A DNA stretch of 55,550 nt from Escherichia phage CSP1C, in the sequence record PQ202980; one strand, given 5' to 3'. Of the stretch, positions 14,067 to 54,851 are shown piece after piece (position 1 is the first letter of the stretch; each line of letters starts with the position of its first letter). A program made the position numbers and the translations under genes. The notes beneath the pieces were generated by a model, which was given only the letters and a program-made list of their open reading frames with translations, was not told the DNA's origin and searched no databases.

Positions 14067-14475
14067 GTTGCCAGGCTGGCAGACACGTTTATTAACCACA
14101 GTAAAGGAGTTGTCATCGACTCCTTTTTCTTGGGGTGAAAATGATTGCTGCACCTTCGCGGCAAAATGTGTTGATGCGCAATACGGAACAAATATCTACG
14201 AACAAGTCGCTGGAAAATATAGTACAGAGCTTGGAAGTAAAAAGTTCACTATTGAAAGAGTTGGAACCGCTTACCTTCCATTGTTATTGGATACATATCT
14301 GAGCGAACGCGTTGACAAGAACTATGCGCAAAGAGGCGATGTGGTTACATTTGAGGGAGCATTGGGCTTAACTGCTGGCATATTATGGACTGGATATGTA
14401 TGGGCTATGGGCCCGAACGGTGTGGAAACATTCCCGCTTAATAAGATCAAAATTACGGATATTTGGAGGGTCTAA
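14059..14475 (+). CDS. minor tail protein, putative NlpC/P60-like (K-like)
   Basis: Start ATG 14059 overlaps upstream stop; product begins MSKLPGWQ and contains WGENDCCTFAAKC with candidate catalytic Cys. The track's longer ORF from 13891 is rejected. Confidence 0.45.
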   Translation: MSKLPGWQTRLLTTVKELSSTPFSWGENDCCTFAAKCVDAQYGTNIYEQVAGKYSTELGSKKFTIERVGTAYLPLLLDTYLSERVDKNYAQRGDVVTFEGALGLTAGILWTGYVWAMGPNGVETFPLNKIKITDIWRV

Positions 14476-17400
14476 TGCCACCAGCAATAATTGGAGCAGC
14501 GATAGCTTTAGGTGCGTCGGCTGCTGCTGCGGCTAGTATTATTTCGGCTACTACCGCTCTCGTTATCGGTATTGCTGCAACTGCGGCAGGTGCTCTTTTA
14601 ACTAAGACACCAAATATGAACTTTGATGCTTACAAGGGGCAGCAAGAGCGTAAACAGGTTCTGCGTGCGGCTACAGCGTCACGCTCTGTTGTATATGGCA
14701 CGACCGTAGCGTCCGGACTATTAGCATTTGCGGAGGAAGAAGCTGGAGATCAAGATGAAGGTGAATGGATGCATCTTGTTGTTGTTCTTGCTAGTCATAA
14801 ATTGGAAGGTATTGAAACAATTTGGTTGGGTGATGACGGAATTGATTGGTTTGGTGAAAACGCTACTTGGGAGTTTCATAACGACCGTCAGACTGTTGAC
14901 CCATTCATGTTAAGACATTGTCCTTCCTGGAAGAATGATATGATTGGCAAGGGTATTGCATGGCTACGTTTAAGCTTAAAGTTTGATGCTGAAAAATTCC
15001 CATCTGGTTTGCCAAACGTCAAGGTGTTGAAAAAGGGACGTAGAGTCTATGACCCACGTTCCGGTCAAACTGTCTTTAGCGATAACGCTGCTCTTGTTAT
15101 TCTTGATTATTTCCGCACGTATTTGAAGCGCAAAGACGAGAATATTAACTGGGACCAATTCAAGGAAGCTGCTAACATCTGCGATGAGTTTGTTACTAAC
15201 GCAGATAACACTACGGAAAGACGCTACCGCATTAACGGTGAGTTTGAAGTGGATGAAGCACCTGCCAAAATCCTTGATGCTATGCTTGAAGCTTGCGGCG
15301 GGGAGCTTACCTATATTGGTGGTAAACACGGTCTGTTAGTTGGTGCTTATTACGGTCCAGCTACCATGACTCTGGATGAAAGCTGCATTGCTGGGGACAT
15401 TAAGATTATCCCTGAGACATCTTATAAAGAGCGCACCAATACCATTACAGGCACATTTGTTGACCCGAAGCAAACATACGCTGAAGCAGATTTCCCTCCA
15501 GTTGTGGTTAAGGAATGGGTGGAAAAAGATGGCGGCGAAATAACGCAAGACATGGATTTCCGCTTTGTTACAAGTGAATATCAAGCTCAACGTCTTGCTA
15601 ATATTATTTTACGTCGTAAGCGTGTTGGTCGAACAATTGAAGTGCCGTGTAACATGAAGGGGTATAAATTCCGCCCGGGCATGTATGTCAACGTGACAAT
15701 TTCAAATATTGGAATGAAAAATGTTGAGATGCGCGTCACTAAATGGTCATTCGATCCTAAAGGTGGGATTAATCTTGTCCTTCGTCAAGACTTCCTGGAA
15801 ATGTGGGACGACGCTATTGGTAAACCAATGGAGCGCCCGGATCTGGTAGACCTTCCGTCTGGTGCTATTGCTCAACCGCAAAACCTTCAGTATCAGGCAT
15901 TGCAGATTAGCGATGTTGTGCAGGGTGTTTTAACGTGGAGCAATATTGGACAGGTAGCGTATAACCGCGTAGCCGTGCGACAGGGAGGTACAACGGTTTG
16001 GACCGCACAAGTCCCTGGCCAAAATGTTCGCGTTACTGGGTTGCTGCGTGGCGCGTATACAGCGCATGTTCAAGCGGTAGCTTATAGCGGAGCAATATCG
16101 CCGGAAGCATATCTGGAATTCAATATTCAAGCACCACCTCCGCCAACTTCTATTGAAGTGCAACAGGGTTACTTTGCAATAACATTGATACCTAAATCCG
16201 CAGATATTGCAAACGTTAGCACGCAATATGATTTCTGGACGTCCGGTGAAACAAGATTGTCTTCCGTATCTACGGATATTGTGGAACGAGAAGCAACTCG
16301 TAAAGGTATGGGTACAACATGGACTTCAGAAGGCTTGAAGAATGACCACACTTATTACTGGTATGTTCGCACTATCAACGCTTTTGGATCGTCTGCATTT
16401 GTAGAAGTAGCTGCATTGTGCTTCACAACCGCTACAGACCTAATGCCACAGATTGATTCTGAGTTCAAGAAGACGGAGACTTATAAAGAGCTTACTGCTG
16501 AAATTACAGGTGTTAAAGACGGTGTTACCCAACTCAGCCAAACTGTAGTAGATACAGAAAAGCGTTTAAGTCAAAGTGTTAGCAACGTTCAGCAGAGTGT
16601 TATTACTTTGGACGGAGTTGTTCAGGATCAGGGTGTTACCATCAATGAGCAAGGGCAACTTATTGATGCACAGGGCCGATTGATTGATACGCAAGGTAAA
16701 ACTATTCAGCAAGTTAGCGCGACTGTACAGGAGACAAGTAAAGCAGTCGTAGATCTGGAAGGTAATGTTAACGCTCAATGGGGTGCTAAAGTACAGGTTG
16801 ACAGTAAAGGGCAAAAATACGTTGCTGGTATCCAGTTGGGTATGGAAGGTTCAGGCGGTGCTGTACAATCTTACTTCATGGTGAGCGCTAACAACTTTGC
16901 TATCTATAACCCGACAAACAGCGTAGCAGAACTGGCATTTGCTGTTAAGAACGGTCAAGTGTTCATGAAGGCTGCGTTTATTGAAAATGGTACTATTGAC
17001 AGCGCTAAAATTTCAAACCAAATTCAGTCAACCAACTACGCTAACAATAGCGCGGGTTGGATGATCAACAAGAACGGTAGCGCTCAGTTTAACAACGTGA
17101 CCATACGGGGTACGGTATACGCTAACAACGGATCTTTTACAGGAACAGTGAACGCAACAAGCGGTAAATTCACTGGTACTGTGGAAGCTACCAGTTTTGT
17201 GGGGGACGTTGCGAATATGTACACAGGATCTGACGTTAGCAGGTTAAAAGATGGCGTACTGGAAAAAACAATTACATACAACGATACATCTAACGCAGCG
17301 TACAGACGACACATCTGCGTTATGGCAAACGTTAAAGGTTTTGGTGGCTGCACAATAGCTATCGGAAGTTCAGAAAAATCCCTTTCTATGAGAGGCGACG

Positions 17401-17543
17401 AGCGCCTTGTTATGCATTCAGCGGCAATAACTACCAAGAGCGTTACAGTTAAAATTAAGGTATCCGCTCAAAATAGTAAGGGGGCTTATATAAATTCACC
17501 GACCGTCATTGTGTCGCGCGGTTCTGGTTCATTCTCAGGATAA
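14475..17543 (+). CDS. central tail fibre / host specificity protein (J-like)
   Basis: About 1020 aa ORF at the end of the tail module; ATG 14475 with SD GGAGGG (track start 14463 is TTG); hydrophobic Ala-rich N-terminus; followed by terminator. Confidence 0.7.
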   Translation: MPPAIIGAAIALGASAAAAASIISATTALVIGIAATAAGALLTKTPNMNFDAYKGQQERKQVLRAATASRSVVYGTTVASGLLAFAEEEAGDQDEGEWMHLVVVLASHKLEGIETIWLGDDGIDWFGENATWEFHNDRQTVDPFMLRHCPSWKNDMIGKGIAWLRLSLKFDAEKFPSGLPNVKVLKKGRRVYDPRSGQTVFSDNAALVILDYFRTYLKRKDENINWDQFKEAANICDEFVTNADNTTERRYRINGEFEVDEAPAKILDAMLEACGGELTYIGGKHGLLVGAYYGPATMTLDESCIAGDIKIIPETSYKERTNTITGTFVDPKQTYAEADFPPVVVKEWVEKDGGEITQDMDFRFVTSEYQAQRLANIILRRKRVGRTIEVPCNMKGYKFRPGMYVNVTISNIGMKNVEMRVTKWSFDPKGGINLVLRQDFLEMWDDAIGKPMERPDLVDLPSGAIAQPQNLQYQALQISDVVQGVLTWSNIGQVAYNRVAVRQGGTTVWTAQVPGQNVRVTGLLRGAYTAHVQAVAYSGAISPEAYLEFNIQAPPPPTSIEVQQGYFAITLIPKSADIANVSTQYDFWTSGETRLSSVSTDIVEREATRKGMGTTWTSEGLKNDHTYYWYVRTINAFGSSAFVEVAALCFTTATDLMPQIDSEFKKTETYKELTAEITGVKDGVTQLSQTVVDTEKRLSQSVSNVQQSVITLDGVVQDQGVTINEQGQLIDAQGRLIDTQGKTIQQVSATVQETSKAVVDLEGNVNAQWGAKVQVDSKGQKYVAGIQLGMEGSGGAVQSYFMVSANNFAIYNPTNSVAELAFAVKNGQVFMKAAFIENGTIDSAKISNQIQSTNYANNSAGWMINKNGSAQFNNVTIRGTVYANNGSFTGTVNATSGKFTGTVEATSFVGDVANMYTGSDVSRLKDGVLEKTITYNDTSNAAYRRHICVMANVKGFGGCTIAIGSSEKSLSMRGDERLVMHSAAITTKSVTVKIKVSAQNSKGAYINSPTVIVSRGSGSFSG

Positions 17544-17547
17544 AAAC

Positions 17548-17578
17548 AACCCCGCTTCGCGCGGGGGTTTCTTTTAGT
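17548..17578. terminator. bidirectional rho-independent terminator between tail fibre and lipoprotein genes
   Basis: CCCCGC ttcgc GCGGGG stem followed by GTTTCTTTT; convergent genes on both sides. Confidence 0.65.
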
Positions 17579-17807
17579 AGTTAGCTACACAGTTTGAAGG
17601 TGAACCAATTCGTCGGTATTCATGATCAATCTCATGGCACCATTGTCCAGTCATTGGAAGCTTTTCGGTATCATAAATTAAAGAACCGTTACCATCACGG
17701 TCTAACGGTTTTGGAATAACGCCGGAATTAGGTTTACCAGTATTCAGACCGTTACCACATGCAGCGAGGGATAAAGTTAATGCAAGCATAATTAAAGCGC
17801 GTTTCAT
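17574..17807 (-). CDS. small lipoprotein, candidate superinfection-exclusion protein
   Basis: ATG 17807 with SD AAGGAG; signal peptide MKRALIMLALTLSLAAC with lipobox LAAC; convergent with the fibre gene. Confidence 0.55.
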   Translation of the reverse strand: MKRALIMLALTLSLAACGNGLNTGKPNSGVIPKPLDRDGNGSLIYDTEKLPMTGQWCHEIDHEYRRIGSPSNCVANY

Positions 17808-17891
17808 TGGGAACTCCTTTTGTGTTGTTGTCAAGGTTCAATTCTAATATACTTGTTGTGTTGAGTAAGTCAAATAAATGTGGGAGATATT

Positions 17892-18062
17892 ATGGCAACT
17901 CGTTTACGTGGTACTTTAGTTGATGGTTTAAATAAACCAATTGTCAACGCTACAGTTGCGCTTTTAGCAAAAGGGAATAGCTTATTGGTATTGTCCGGCA
18001 GTGAAGCTATCTTTAAAACAAGTGCAACCGGAACAACCTGTAGAAGCTCGCGAACATATTAG
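17892..18062 (+). CDS. small ORF with transthyretin-like N-terminal signature (possible gene remnant)
   Basis: 56 aa starting MATRLRGTLVDGLNKPIVNATVAL; SD GGGAGA; another open frame continues to about 18165. Confidence 0.3.
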   Translation: MATRLRGTLVDGLNKPIVNATVALLAKGNSLLVLSGSEAIFKTSATGTTCRSSRTY

Positions 18063-53069: not shown

Positions 53070-53330
53070 ATGACTACATTCAGTCACCTGATCCCACCTG
53101 CTTATCACAGCAAGGTAGTTGACCACGGGACGCATGTTGTAATTGGTGGCGAAATCTTTATCACAGATAACGAGGAAATCGCCATTGCAATTATTGACAG
53201 CACTCAGCATGACTTTATGGTTATCCTGCAACACGAACCCGATAACTTCACTTTTTACTCCAGCTACGGGGTCGATAAAGGTGGAAAAAGCCTTGTTAGC
53301 TGGTACATTAGCGAGTGGTTTGACGGGTAA
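53070..53330 (+). CDS. hypothetical protein
   Basis: 86 aa; ATG directly after upstream stop, SD GAGGG. Confidence 0.45.
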   Translation: MTTFSHLIPPAYHSKVVDHGTHVVIGGEIFITDNEEIAIAIIDSTQHDFMVILQHEPDNFTFYSSYGVDKGGKSLVSWYISEWFDG

Positions 53331-53412
53331 TCTCCTTAGATCAATTCTCCTTGCGCCGTATCAAGTTTCTCTGTTACCCTTGAGTGGTTCATGTCAAGCG
53401 GAGGAACTCGAT

Positions 53413-53850
53413 ATGGCACTTCAACCTCGTGGTATTCGTAATAACAATCCAGGCAATATTCGCTGGGGTGACAATTGGCAGGGCTTAGTTCCTGCTGATA
53501 AGCGGACCGATAAATCTTTTGCTCAATTCACGCAACCGATTTACGGCATCCGCGCTCTGGCGAAAGTCCTGACCAACTACACCAAACGTGAAGGCTTACC
53601 CAATGTGGGTAAGAAAAACATCGACACTGTACGTGAAATTATCTCTCGCTGGGCTCCGCCTAACGAAAACGATACGGAAGCGTATATTCGTTCTGTTGCC
53701 AAAGCAATTGGTGTTGAACCTAACGATCCAATCAATGTCTTCGACAAGACGATAATGTCAGGTTTGGTAAAAGCAATCATTCGTCATGAAAATGGCATGA
53801 TGCCTTACACGGACGACGTAATCAACCGCGCTATTGCAATGGTAATTTAA
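53413..53850 (+). CDS. putative endolysin / cell-wall hydrolase (family unassigned)
   Basis: 145 aa from ATG 53413 (SD GGAGGA) with N-terminal RNNNPGNIRWGDNWQG motif; assignment is positional (immediately upstream of holin and spanins). Confidence 0.4.
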   Translation: MALQPRGIRNNNPGNIRWGDNWQGLVPADKRTDKSFAQFTQPIYGIRALAKVLTNYTKREGLPNVGKKNIDTVREIISRWAPPNENDTEAYIRSVAKAIGVEPNDPINVFDKTIMSGLVKAIIRHENGMMPYTDDVINRAIAMVI

Positions 53851-53855
53851 CTGAT

Positions 53856-53877
53856 GGGGCGTCAGCCCCTTTTTATT
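53856..53877 (+). terminator. terminator/attenuator-like hairpin between endolysin-like gene and holin
   Basis: GGGGC gtca GCCCC followed by TTTTTATT. Confidence 0.5.
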
Positions 53878-53886
53878 GGAGGGAAC

Positions 53887-54231
53887 ATGTTCAACTCATC
53901 AAACGAACATTGGGCAGTTCTAGCGGGGTTTGCTCTGATTTCCCTCATTGGGGGAGCTCTCGGTTACGTCATGCGTACGATTGACGCTGGTAAGAAGGTA
54001 CGGATAAGCATTGCATGTCTTGAAGGTTTATCCGCCGCGTTCTTTGGCGTTATAATGTACGCGATCTACAGGGAGTTTAATATCAGCCTTTGGTTCGCTT
54101 TTGGCCTTGCTGGCCTATTCGCTTGGGCGGGTTCACGTGCTACGCTAAAAGCTCTAAAGTCGCTTCTAGCATCGCGGACAGGGATCAAACTCGACTCAGA
54201 GGACTGCAAACATGAAAATGATTCTAAATAA
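53887..54231 (+). CDS. holin (3 predicted TM helices)
   Basis: 114 aa from ATG 53887 with SD GGAGGG; three hydrophobic helices and charged C-terminus. Confidence 0.6.
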   Translation: MFNSSNEHWAVLAGFALISLIGGALGYVMRTIDAGKKVRISIACLEGLSAAFFGVIMYAIYREFNISLWFAFGLAGLFAWAGSRATLKALKSLLASRTGIKLDSEDCKHENDSK

Positions 54232-54688
54232 CTTCTTCAGTTTTATAAAAGCTAAACCGCGTCTATTTATCGAGTACCTGATGATTGGCGCGGTGGTGTT
54301 TCTATGCGGAGTGGCCGCTTACCTGTGGTCACAAAACGAGCTTAACAAATCAAATTTAAGCTTGGCTGAAGAACGTTTAACCGTTGTGGAGAAGGACAAT
54401 GCTAAGCTGAGCGAAGCTGTTGTATTTCTTGCTGCACAAAGGGAGAAAGATACGGACTCTTTCAAGAAACTAACTTCTGCAATTCAGGACGAACAACATA
54501 ACCACAAGTTGCTTCAGGACAAGTTGCAGACACTGGAGAAAAGCAATGCCGACGTCAAAGCTTATCTTAACGAGCGTATTCCTGATGATTTGCGCAGGTT
54601 GCTCGACGCAGACTCAACCTCCCCCAGCTCCACAGATAGTGAAGGTAAGACTACCCGCGCATCTACTGGTGGAATGTCGGGAAGTTGA
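54212..54688 (+). CDS. i-spanin (Rz-like)
   Basis: N-terminal TM helix then coiled-coil-rich periplasmic domain; overlaps the o-spanin gene. Confidence 0.6.
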   Translation: MKMILNNFFSFIKAKPRLFIEYLMIGAVVFLCGVAAYLWSQNELNKSNLSLAEERLTVVEKDNAKLSEAVVFLAAQREKDTDSFKKLTSAIQDEQHNHKLLQDKLQTLEKSNADVKAYLNERIPDDLRRLLDADSTSPSSTDSEGKTTRASTGGMSGS

Positions 54689-54851
54689 GAAAATTCCTTT
54701 GGTTTACACAAGAGATATTATCCGACGTTTACAGGATACAGAAACTGCTCTGACTGAATGTAAGCTAAGGGTTAAGGAAATCATACGCTATGAAGCTGAA
54801 AATGTTTCGCTTGATTTTGTAGGATCAAGCAATTATATTCAGCCTAAATAG
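54546..54851 (+). CDS. o-spanin (Rz1-like outer-membrane lipoprotein), partly embedded in the i-spanin gene
   Basis: Signal peptide ending LMICAGC followed by Pro-rich QTQPPPAPQ; starts in the +1 frame inside the i-spanin gene. Confidence 0.55.
   Translation: MPTSKLILTSVFLMICAGCSTQTQPPPAPQIVKVRLPAHLLVECREVEKIPLVYTRDIIRRLQDTETALTECKLRVKEIIRYEAENVSLDFVGSSNYIQPK

What the first reader, a model, noticed from the sequence alone, without database searches (positions are those of the whole stretch)
17574..17807. Lipoprotein gene convergent with the tail fibre gene: superinfection-exclusion candidate
A 77-aa lipoprotein with lipobox LAAC and a strong SD is encoded on the opposite strand just downstream of the J-like fibre gene, sharing its terminator. 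This placement is typical of Llp/Cor-like proteins that block the phage's own receptor.
Basis: partly seen in the sequence, partly recalled or inferred. Interest (0 to 1): 0.55.

Follow-up and report, generated by a model that had tools for sequence, protein, structure and literature searches.

The report
Receptor-shielding lipoprotein next to tail-tip gene

Summary
A 77-aa lipoprotein gene lies at 17574-17807 (-), with lipobox LAAC, an AAGGAG Shine-Dalgarno site, its own sigma-70-like promoter, and a bidirectional terminator shared with the convergent J-like gene.

The window is a Seuratvirus, identical to Cronobacter phage CSP1 except for a 4,672-bp deletion.

The protein is a full-length member of phrog_12984. 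It is 57% identical to Lpp010 (gp116 of temperate phage mEp010). Plasmid-expressed Lpp010 was shown in 2025 to exclude LamB-dependent phages, lambda included (PMC11893012).

In 50,697 phage records, 41 of the 43 that carry the gene also carry one of two related J-tip types. These tips occur in phages shown to depend on LamB. The window's tip is 92% identical to that of LamB-dependent mEp554. LptD-targeting relatives lack the gene.

Only the signal peptide aligns with T5 Llp or T1 Cor, and neither an Llp nor an Rtp45 chain came up in the PDB sequence searches. It is therefore a functional analogue of these proteins, not a homologue.

A 2022 paper had already flagged the 96%-identical Bas23 gene as a likely exclusion lipoprotein.

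How it blocks LamB remains open; binding to the periplasmic face is an inference. Verdict: interpretation supported, already known, modest interest.

The parts
17574..17807 (-). Lipoprotein precursor CDS, 77 aa (stop codon TAA at 17574-17576)
   Evidence: ORF list and translation; phrog_12984 E 6e-53; identical to CSP1_011; purifying selection
17760..17807 (-). Signal peptide, residues 1-16 (MKRALIMLALTLSLAA). The lipobox L-A-A-C ends at Cys17 (codon 17757-17759), the predicted lipidated N-terminus.
   Evidence: Regex and hydrophobicity tests. Cys17 is invariant in 29-31 homologues, while the rest of the signal peptide varies.
17577..17759 (-). Mature 61-aa domain with conserved motifs PNSGV and DTEKLPxTGQWC and a C-terminal NC. 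Cys57 and Cys73 are a predicted disulfide pair.
   Evidence: Alignments A1/A3: P26 N27 S28 G29 V30 T47 E48 G54 Q55 W56 N72 C73 invariant, C57 present in at least 90%
17814..17819 (-). Shine-Dalgarno AAGGAG, 6 nt upstream of the ATG
   Evidence: Read directly from the sequence; conserved in WildeMaa and KurtStettler
17846..17873 (-). Sigma-70-like promoter TTGACT-16 nt-TATATT (10 of 12 matches) in the 84-nt gap between the lipoprotein gene and the divergent lateral-fibre gene
   Evidence: Consensus scan. The scan alone is weak: 2 sites found against 1.5 expected. Both hexamers are conserved in WildeMaa and in the 72%-identical KurtStettler region.
17550..17566 (.). Bidirectional intrinsic terminator hairpin CCCCGC-ttcgc-GCGGGG. 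An A-run precedes it and a T-run follows it, so both convergent genes can use it.
   Evidence: Terminator scan hits on both strands. mEp010 and mEp554 have an annotated terminator at the same position.
14475..17543 (+). J-like central tail fibre / tail-tip gene, convergent partner of the lipoprotein gene
   Evidence: Homology to lambda J structures 8iyk/8xcj; CSP1_012 annotation
17221..17540 (+). C-terminal tip of J (about the last 107 aa), the predicted LamB-binding domain. It is of the mEp554 / mEp010 / KurtStettler / 9g / HK97 type.
   Evidence: 92% aa identity to the tip of LamB-dependent mEp554 and 58% to LamB-dependent KurtStettler. Receptor data from PMC11893012 and the BASEL S5 table.

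Best explanation
The gene encodes a superinfection-exclusion (lytic-conversion) lipoprotein directed at the phage's own terminal receptor, predicted to be the maltoporin LamB.

Proposed sequence of events:
1. Host RNA polymerase transcribes the gene from its own sigma-70-type promoter, independently of the late tail operon in which it is embedded in the opposite orientation.
2. The 77-aa precursor is exported and lipidated at Cys17, and its signal peptide is removed by signal peptidase II. Because residue +2 is Gly, the Lol pathway sorts it to the inner leaflet of the outer membrane.
3. There the 6.7-kDa mature domain, probably stabilised by a Cys57-Cys73 disulfide, binds LamB and makes it unusable by J-type tail tips.
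4. Infected cells and their debris therefore no longer take up or waste phages that use LamB. In prophages carrying the same gene, the lysogen becomes resistant to lambda-like LamB phages.

Shown here: the gene, its lipoprotein signal, its homology to Lpp010, and its linkage to LamB-type J tips.
Shown in the literature for a homologue: the exclusion phenotype.
Inferred: outer-membrane/periplasmic location, direct LamB binding, and a block at adsorption. The last three rest on analogy with T5 Llp-FhuA and Rtp45-LptD.
For: 1. Anatomy: lipobox, SD site, own promoter, bidirectional terminator.

2. Homology: phrog_12984 E 6e-53. 57% identity (E 8e-33) to mEp010 gp116 = Lpp010. Lpp010 excluded LamB-dependent mEp010, mEp044, mEp554 and lambda when expressed alone (PMC11893012).

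3. Receptor linkage:
- The window's J tip is 92% identical to that of mEp554, which cannot infect a lamB knockout.
- BASEL Seuratviruses Bas21-24 are LamB-dependent and all carry the gene at 84-96% identity. LptD-dependent Bas25 and Bas20 lack it.
- Of 43 phage records with the gene, 41 carry one of two related J-tip types. Of 44 records with such tips, 41 carry the gene.

4. The lipoprotein does not co-vary with tip type. Window and WildeMaa have different tips (28% identity) but lipoproteins that are 96% identical. Lpp010 also excludes lambda, whose tip is unrelated (22%). This points to action on the shared receptor rather than on the tip.

5. The convergent-with-J synteny is conserved in Seuratvirus, Dhillonvirus, mEpimmI phages and an E. 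coli Nissle prophage.

6. Strong purifying selection acts on the mature domain only (dN/dS 0.06-0.2).

7. Precedents: T5 Llp binds the periplasmic face of FhuA (PMC9586334). Rtp45 binds the periplasmic side of LptD and displaces extracellular loops (PMC12685063).
Against: - No experiment exists on this protein or on any Seuratvirus copy. The tested homologue is only 57% identical.
- The mEp study measured plating, not adsorption, so the blocked step is unknown.
- Lpp010 did not exclude LamB-dependent mEp013.
- LamB has no plug and no known allostery, so a periplasmic binder blocking an extracellular site lacks an obvious mechanism (PMC9586334).
- HK97 has the same tip type without the lipoprotein.
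- E. coli Nissle carries an 88%-identical copy, yet lambda reportedly still binds its LamB (PMC5987069). If that copy is expressed, this argues against an adsorption block.
- The AF2 model is low-confidence (pLDDT 63.8, pTM 0.35), so there is no structural support.
- The promoter call is a consensus match only.
- The recorded host of the identical phage CSP1 is Cronobacter sakazakii, and LamB use by this phage has not been tested.
Confidence: 0.75

Rival explanations
1. Same biological role (exclusion of LamB-dependent phages), but the block comes after adsorption. The lipoprotein would prevent irreversible triggering, tail-tip penetration or DNA passage through the periplasm, and the J tip would still bind LamB.
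For: - The Lpp010 study scored only plaque formation.
- E. coli Nissle has a prophage with the same J-tip/lipoprotein module (88% identical lipoprotein).
- That strain is fully lambda-resistant, yet it still removes lambda from suspension in a LamB-dependent way. The authors inferred an unidentified factor blocking DNA entry (PMC5987069).
- LamB has no known allostery.
Against: - Both structurally solved analogues, Llp and Rtp45, abolish RBP binding.
- For a virulent phage, the main benefit is usually thought to be keeping progeny from adsorbing to debris (PMC11990801). That requires an adsorption block.
- Expression of the Nissle copy has not been shown.
Confidence: 0.2
2. The lipoprotein is flipped to the cell surface and masks LamB's extracellular loops directly from outside.
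For: Raised as a possibility for SE lipoproteins of non-TBDT receptors in PMC9586334. LamB has no plug to transmit a periplasmic signal.
Against: - The later Rtp45-LptDE structure showed a periplasmic location for the non-TBDT case that prompted the idea.
- Nothing in the sequence suggests surface export. The mature domain is a 61-aa hydrophilic peptide with Gly at +2.
Confidence: 0.04
3. It is not an exclusion factor. It would instead be an outer-membrane spanin subunit, a Bor/Lom-like moron, or a FhuA-directed Cor/Llp homologue.
For: - Weak PHROG hit to an Rz-like spanin family (E 0.0025), restricted to residues 1-32, which cover little more than the signal peptide.
- The slot downstream of J often holds morons, such as lambda lom.
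Against: - The phage has its own lysis cassette 36 kb away, with an Rz-like gene and an overlapping Rz1-like gene at 54212-54851.
- There is no Pfam, NCBIfam or PADLOC hit beyond the signal peptide.
- Only the signal peptide aligns with Cor or Llp.
- The J tip is of the LamB type, not the FhuA type.
- The homologue has a demonstrated exclusion phenotype.
Confidence: 0.01

Closest known systems
Lpp010 (gp116 of Escherichia phage mEp010; 'type-C' exclusion lipoprotein of mEpimmI phages; PHROG family phrog_12984)
   Same: - Homologous over the whole mature domain: 57% identity, with all conserved motifs and all three Cys.
- Same size class, 77 vs 82 aa.
- Same position, convergent with J and sharing a terminator.
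- Same J-tip type, of LamB-dependent phages.

   Different: - The host phage here is a virulent Seuratvirus (Queuovirinae), not a temperate mEpimmI phage.
- The linker after the lipidated Cys is 3 residues shorter and unrelated in sequence.
- The signal peptide differs.
- The window copy itself is untested.
T5 Llp (lytic conversion lipoprotein, blocks FhuA)
   Same: - Identical precursor length, 77 aa, with a mature part of about 61 aa.
- Lipobox, plus two further Cys.
- Encoded next to the receptor-binding protein gene with its own promoter.
- Role: disabling the phage's own receptor.

   Different: - Only the signal peptide aligns, and no Llp chain came up in the PDB sequence searches.
- Llp's disulfide ties the two termini together (Cys11-Cys58), whereas here the Cys pair is 16 residues apart.
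- Llp works through the FhuA plug, which LamB lacks.
- llp is divergent from oad, whereas this gene is convergent with J.
Cor of T1 / phi80 / N15 (FhuA-directed exclusion lipoprotein)
   Same: - A 75-aa lipoprotein encoded on the opposite strand, directly after the J/RBP locus, with a terminator between them.
- Same logic of blocking the phage's own receptor.
   Different: - No alignment at E <= 100, and hhalign aligns only the 21-column signal peptide.
- The receptor is FhuA.
Rtp45 of phage Rtp (LptD-directed exclusion lipoprotein, PDB 9RPS)
   Same: - A lipoprotein of about 6 kDa with a short-range disulfide, encoded in the RBP locus downstream of gpJ.
- It blocks a receptor that is not a TonB-dependent transporter, by binding the periplasmic side and pushing a hairpin up the barrel lumen (PMC12685063).
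- This makes it the best mechanistic template for a LamB blocker.
   Different: - No detectable sequence similarity: the PDB sequence searches found nothing.
- Different receptor.
- Rtp-type phages carry a separate RBP gene, whereas here the J tip itself is the RBP.

Membership tests
Lpp010 / type-C mEpimmI exclusion lipoprotein family (phrog_12984) | Sequence homology across the mature domain | tested here: met
   phrog_12984 E 6e-53, residues 1-77 aligned to profile positions 1-77. BLASTP against mEp010 gp116: 57% identity, E 8e-33. Motifs PNSGV, DTEKLPxTGQWC and NC are conserved.
Lpp010 / type-C mEpimmI exclusion lipoprotein family (phrog_12984) | Lipoprotein signal peptide with lipobox [LVI][ASTVI][GAS]C | tested here: met
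   LAAC at residues 14-17, and three regex tests are positive. Cys17 is invariant in the family. No SignalP/LipoP tool was available.
Lpp010 / type-C mEpimmI exclusion lipoprotein family (phrog_12984) | Gene located directly after and convergent with the J gene, within the tail gene cluster | tested here: met
   Window, mEp010 and mEp554, WildeMaa and KurtStettler, EP23, Nissle prophage
Lpp010 / type-C mEpimmI exclusion lipoprotein family (phrog_12984) | Carried by phages that use LamB | tested here: inconclusive
   The window's J tip is 92% identical to LamB-dependent mEp554. All four LamB-dependent BASEL Seuratviruses carry the gene and LptD-dependent ones do not. The receptor of this particular phage (CSP1-like) is predicted, not measured.
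Lpp010 / type-C mEpimmI exclusion lipoprotein family (phrog_12984) | Expression alone excludes LamB-dependent phages | not testable with these tools
   Shown only for Lpp010 (PMC11893012). Needs a plating/adsorption experiment.
T5 Llp family | Sequence homology of the mature lipoprotein to Llp | tested here: not met
   BLASTP found no alignment at E <= 100. hhalign aligned only the 20-column signal peptide. phmmer and profile searches of PDB, assumed (not checked) to hold the FhuA-Llp entry, returned no Llp chain.
T5 Llp family | Blocks FhuA via the plug domain | not testable with these tools
   Not expected: the J tip is of the LamB type, and LamB has no plug.
Cor family (T1, phi80, N15) | Sequence homology of the mature lipoprotein to Cor | tested here: not met
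   BLASTP against T1 Cor found no alignment at E <= 100. hhalign aligned only the signal peptide. No Pfam or NCBIfam family matched beyond the signal peptide.
Cor family (T1, phi80, N15) | Small lipoprotein gene on the opposite strand, directly after the J/RBP locus | tested here: met
   T1 layout compared with the window. This is a positional analogy only.
Rz1-type outer-membrane spanin | Lipoprotein gene embedded in, or overlapping, an Rz gene within the lysis cassette | tested here: not met
   The lysis cassette with Rz-like and overlapping Rz1-like genes lies at 53143-54851. The gene at 17.6 kb has no Rz partner. The PHROG spanin hit (E 0.0025) is confined to residues 1-32, little more than the signal peptide.

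The most novel reading that the evidence does not exclude
The family disables LamB by a mechanism unlike Llp's plug-mediated allostery. Either it threads part of the 61-aa peptide into the maltoporin lumen from the periplasm, or it blocks a step after J binding.

The second option would also identify the unexplained 'other factor' that makes E. coli Nissle 1917 fully lambda-resistant while lambda still binds its LamB. Nissle's prophage carries an 88%-identical copy next to a LamB-type J tip.

Either way, this would answer the question posed in PNAS 2022: how can a lipoprotein block a receptor with no known allostery?
Probability: 0.3. Interest if true: 0.6.

Novelty: already known. Interest (0 to 1): 0.27.

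Why it matters
For annotation: this gene, and its many copies labelled 'hypothetical protein' or left unannotated (CSP1, BASEL Bas21-24, EP23, PNS1, E. coli Nissle), can be named a LamB-associated superinfection-exclusion lipoprotein. Together with the J tip, it is a marker that predicts LamB use.

For phage biology and therapy:
- It predicts cross-exclusion among otherwise unrelated LamB phages (Seuratvirus, Nonagvirus, Dhillonvirus, mEpimmI, lambda).
- Prophage copies, found in 47 of 5,426 complete E. coli genomes, may make strains resistant to such phages.

The open scientific point is the mechanism, not the existence of the gene: how does a 6.7-kDa lipoprotein disable a plug-less porin?

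Tried and rejected
- Pfam, NCBIfam and PADLOC scans gave only signal-peptide-level hits or nothing.
- PDB sequence searches with the protein and with the family profile found nothing relevant, so no solved homologue exists.
- AlphaFold2 on a 29-sequence alignment gave a low-confidence, mostly coil model (pLDDT 63.8, pTM 0.35). Foldseek against PDB then gave zero matches. This is uninformative and was not pursued. Published AF models of Llp and Rtp45 were also wrong.
- Direct and profile comparisons with T1 Cor and T5 Llp aligned only the signal peptide.
- The o-spanin idea was rejected after locating the real lysis cassette.
- The DruSM1 knockout-library preprint was checked for dispensability of the homologous ORF, but the text does not list it.
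- The alternative TTG start at 17834 (86 aa) was rejected. All homologues start at the MK... ATG, which has the SD site.

Full report
**1. Observation**

The - strand ORF 17574..17807 encodes a 77-aa protein, MKRALIMLALTLSLAAC|GNGLNTGKPNSGVIPKPLDRDGNGSLIYDTEKLPMTGQWCHEIDHEYRRIGSPSNCVANY.

- The N-terminus has a +2 n-region, a 12-residue hydrophobic core and the lipobox L-A-A-C. Two published-style lipoprotein regexes and the strict lipobox pattern match.
- In a six-frame scan of the whole window, this ORF is the only convincing match.
- The mature part is 61 aa and 6.7 kDa. It has Gly at +2, so there is no inner-membrane retention signal under the E. coli +2 rule (established knowledge). It has two further Cys.
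- AAGGAG lies 6 nt upstream of the ATG.
- A 6-bp all-GC hairpin at 17550-17566 sits between the stop of the upstream gene (17543) and the lipoprotein stop (17574). It scores as an intrinsic terminator on both strands.
- The upstream 1026-aa ORF is a true lambda-J homologue (PDB 8iyk, E 1.9e-30).

**2. Where the window comes from**

The region is 100% identical to Cronobacter phage CSP1 (KY982929), and the first 25 kb of the window are 95-97% identical to Escherichia Seuratviruses (Queuovirinae) such as RCIP0359, KS_W4, WildeMaa (Bas23) and SeppeHuegi (Bas24). In these records the gene is annotated 'hypothetical protein' or 'lipoprotein'.

**3. The gene is real and under selection**

- It matches PHROG family phrog_12984 ('lipoprotein') end to end, E 6e-53.
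- Thirty relatives were found among 5.8 billion proteins, from phages and from E. coli and Salmonella chromosomes.
- Signal-peptide sequences vary freely. The lipidated Cys, the motifs PNSGV and DTEKLPxTGQWC, and the C-terminal N-C are invariant or nearly so.
- On the mature domain, dN/dS is 0.09 against WildeMaa and 0.06 against KurtStettler (dS 0.86). It is 0.1-0.2 against the mEp copies, where synonymous sites are close to saturated.

**4. What family it belongs to**

- No Pfam, NCBIfam or PADLOC model matches beyond the signal peptide, and no PDB chain matches by sequence or profile.
- tblastn found the gene in 43 of 50,697 phage records. These are Seuratvirus, Nonagvirus 9g, Dhillonvirus (EP23, PNS1, Maverick, HH3), MagusPhagus, a Salmonella phage, an Enterobacter phage, and the temperate mEpimmI phages mEp010, 013, 044 and 554.
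- The mEp010 copy is gp116 (mEp010_116). It too lies convergent with J, with an annotated terminator between the two genes.
- Negrete-Mendez et al. 2025 (PMC11893012) cloned exactly this gene as 'Lpp010'. Its expression excluded LamB-dependent mEp010, mEp044 and mEp554 and, unexpectedly, lambda, but not mEp013.
- The window protein is 57% identical to Lpp010 (E 8e-33).

**5. Link to LamB**

- The last ~110 aa of the window's J are 92% identical to mEp554, 90% to mEp044 and 68% to mEp010, all of which cannot infect a lamB knockout. They are 58-60% identical to KurtStettler (Bas22, LamB, complemented), 9g, Dru_SM1 and HK97.
- Most other Seuratviruses and the Dhillonviruses carry a second, related tip type with an insertion. 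This type occurs in WildeMaa, SeppeHuegi and GottfriedDienst.
- The BASEL S5 table lists Bas21, 22, 23 and 24 as LamB-dependent, and Bas25 (VogelGryff) and Bas20 as LptD-dependent. The first four carry the lipoprotein and the LptD phages do not. VogelGryff has a shorter J and a 321-aa gene in the same slot.
- Across the phage collection, all 32 records with the second tip type and 9 of 12 with the first carry the lipoprotein. The exceptions are two HK97 records and a 34%-identical hit. Conversely, 41 of 43 lipoprotein records carry one of these tips.
- The lipoprotein follows the receptor, not the tip type. Window and WildeMaa differ in tip (28% identity) but their lipoproteins are 96% identical. 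Lpp010 also excludes lambda, whose tip is only 22% identical.

**6. Expression signals**

- The gene is a lone reverse-strand gene inside the forward late tail operon.
- The 84-nt gap to the divergent lateral-fibre gene contains TTGACT-16-TATATT (10/12) on the - strand. Both hexamers are conserved in WildeMaa and in the otherwise 72%-identical KurtStettler region.
- The consensus scan alone is not significant (2 sites against 1.5 expected), so early, host-polymerase-driven expression is an inference. It parallels T5 llp, which has its own promoter next to oad.

**7. Mechanism**

Most likely, the lipoprotein is exported, lipidated, Lol-sorted to the inner leaflet of the outer membrane, and bound to LamB so that J-type tips can no longer use it.

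- For the plug-less LptD, the ~6-kDa lipoprotein Rtp45 binds at the periplasmic rim, sends a disulfide-braced hairpin up the lumen and displaces loops EL4/5 (PMC12685063). Rtp45 is the better template for LamB.
- That Lpp010 fails against mEp013, which differs in J, fits an altered receptor surface rather than a missing one.
- Not shown: location, direct binding, and which step is blocked.
- A post-adsorption block is a live rival. The Lpp010 work scored only plaques. E. coli Nissle 1917 carries the same module in a prophage: an 88%-identical lipoprotein convergent with a J whose tip is 60% identical to the window's. That strain is fully lambda-resistant although lambda still binds its LamB, and the authors postulated an unidentified factor blocking DNA entry (PMC5987069). 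Whether the Nissle copy is expressed is unknown.

**8. Comparison with known systems**

- T5 Llp is also a 77-aa precursor with two extra Cys. T1 Cor is a 75-aa lipoprotein on the opposite strand directly after the J/RBP locus.
- BLASTP finds no alignment at E <= 100 with either, and profile-profile comparison aligns only the 20-21 columns of the signal peptide.
- The Cys pattern differs too. Llp and Cor tie the N- and C-terminal ends together, whereas here the Cys pair is 16 residues apart.
- The protein therefore works like Llp, Cor and Rtp45 but is not a member of those families. It is a member of the Lpp010/phrog_12984 family.
- The spanin alternative is excluded. The phage's lysis cassette lies at 53143-54851 and comprises endolysin, holin, an Rz-like gene and an overlapping Rz1-like gene.

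**9. Structure**

AlphaFold2 on the 29-sequence alignment gave pLDDT 63.8 and pTM 0.35, mostly coil. Foldseek against PDB returned nothing. This is uninformative. Published predictions for Llp and Rtp45 were also unlike the experimental structures.

**10. Novelty and verdict**

- It is already in the literature. PMC8594841 described RBP/exclusion loci downstream of gpJ in these genera. PMC9586334 noted that LamB-targeting Bas23 likely has an SE lipoprotein there, and asked how it could work without allostery. PMC11893012 demonstrated exclusion for a homologue.
- What this analysis adds: the explicit family assignment, the tip/lipoprotein co-occurrence numbers, evidence that the lipoprotein tracks the receptor rather than the tip type, and the Nissle lead.
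- Interest is modest. The open question is mechanistic.

Noticed in passing
window 18022-18035 (junction); remnant ORF 17892-18062: The window equals the CSP1 genome minus 4,672 bp (60,222 vs 55,550). One copy of a 14-bp direct repeat, GTGCAACCGGAACA, remains at the junction. The deletion removes the lateral tail fibre gene after about codon 48, plus CSP1_009, CSP1_008 and part of CSP1_007. This phage would therefore lack side fibres, like lambda PaPa, and depend on the J tip alone.
   Followed up: partly
window 17221-17586: Mosaic joint. Homology to other Seuratviruses (WildeMaa, 96-97%) stops at 17220 and resumes at 17587. In between lie the J tip, the terminator and the last four codons of the lipoprotein gene (C-terminus ANY instead of IDY). 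This stretch is 86-90% identical to temperate phage mEp554. A receptor-binding tip has thus been exchanged between virulent and temperate phages, with one crossover inside the lipoprotein gene.
   Followed up: partly
L011 6001-6234 (E. coli Nissle 1917 chromosome NZ_CP058217 2214449-2214682): A Nissle 1917 prophage carries an 88%-identical 77-aa copy, convergent with a J gene whose tip is 60% identical to the window's. In all, 47 of 5,426 complete E. coli genomes have a copy. Nissle's complete lambda resistance is only partly explained in the literature, and lambda still binds its LamB. This gene is an untested candidate for the missing factor.
   Followed up: partly
HK97 (NC_002167 18699-19028): The HK97 J tip is 59% identical to the window's tip, but HK97 has no homologue of the lipoprotein. 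It is the one clear exception to the tip/lipoprotein linkage.
   Followed up: no
L006 4486-4728 (Shigella phage EP23) and PNS1 (NC_073063 9759-9983): Homologues of the lipoprotein gene are present but unannotated in the EP23 and PNS1 records. The EP23 copy is an 80-aa ORF, convergent with the tail fibre gene.
   Followed up: partly
window 53143-54851: Lysis cassette: a transglycosylase-type endolysin (53143-53850), a holin (53854-54231), an Rz-like i-spanin (54212-54688) and an overlapping Rz1-like gene (54546-54851).
   Followed up: partly
window J residues 752-944 (about 16716-17294): PDB entries 9wca/9wcb are named 'A8 gpJ 713' (428-aa chain). They match the window's J and may be the C-terminal part of J from Seuratvirus KS_A8. 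If so, an experimental structure of the second LamB-type tip exists. Partner chains were not checked.
   Followed up: no
L008 3828-4793 (VogelGryff, Bas25): In the LptD-dependent Seuratvirus, the slot convergent with a shorter J (879 aa) holds a 321-aa gene instead of the 77-aa lipoprotein gene. This illustrates that the slot is the exchangeable receptor-specificity locus.
   Followed up: no
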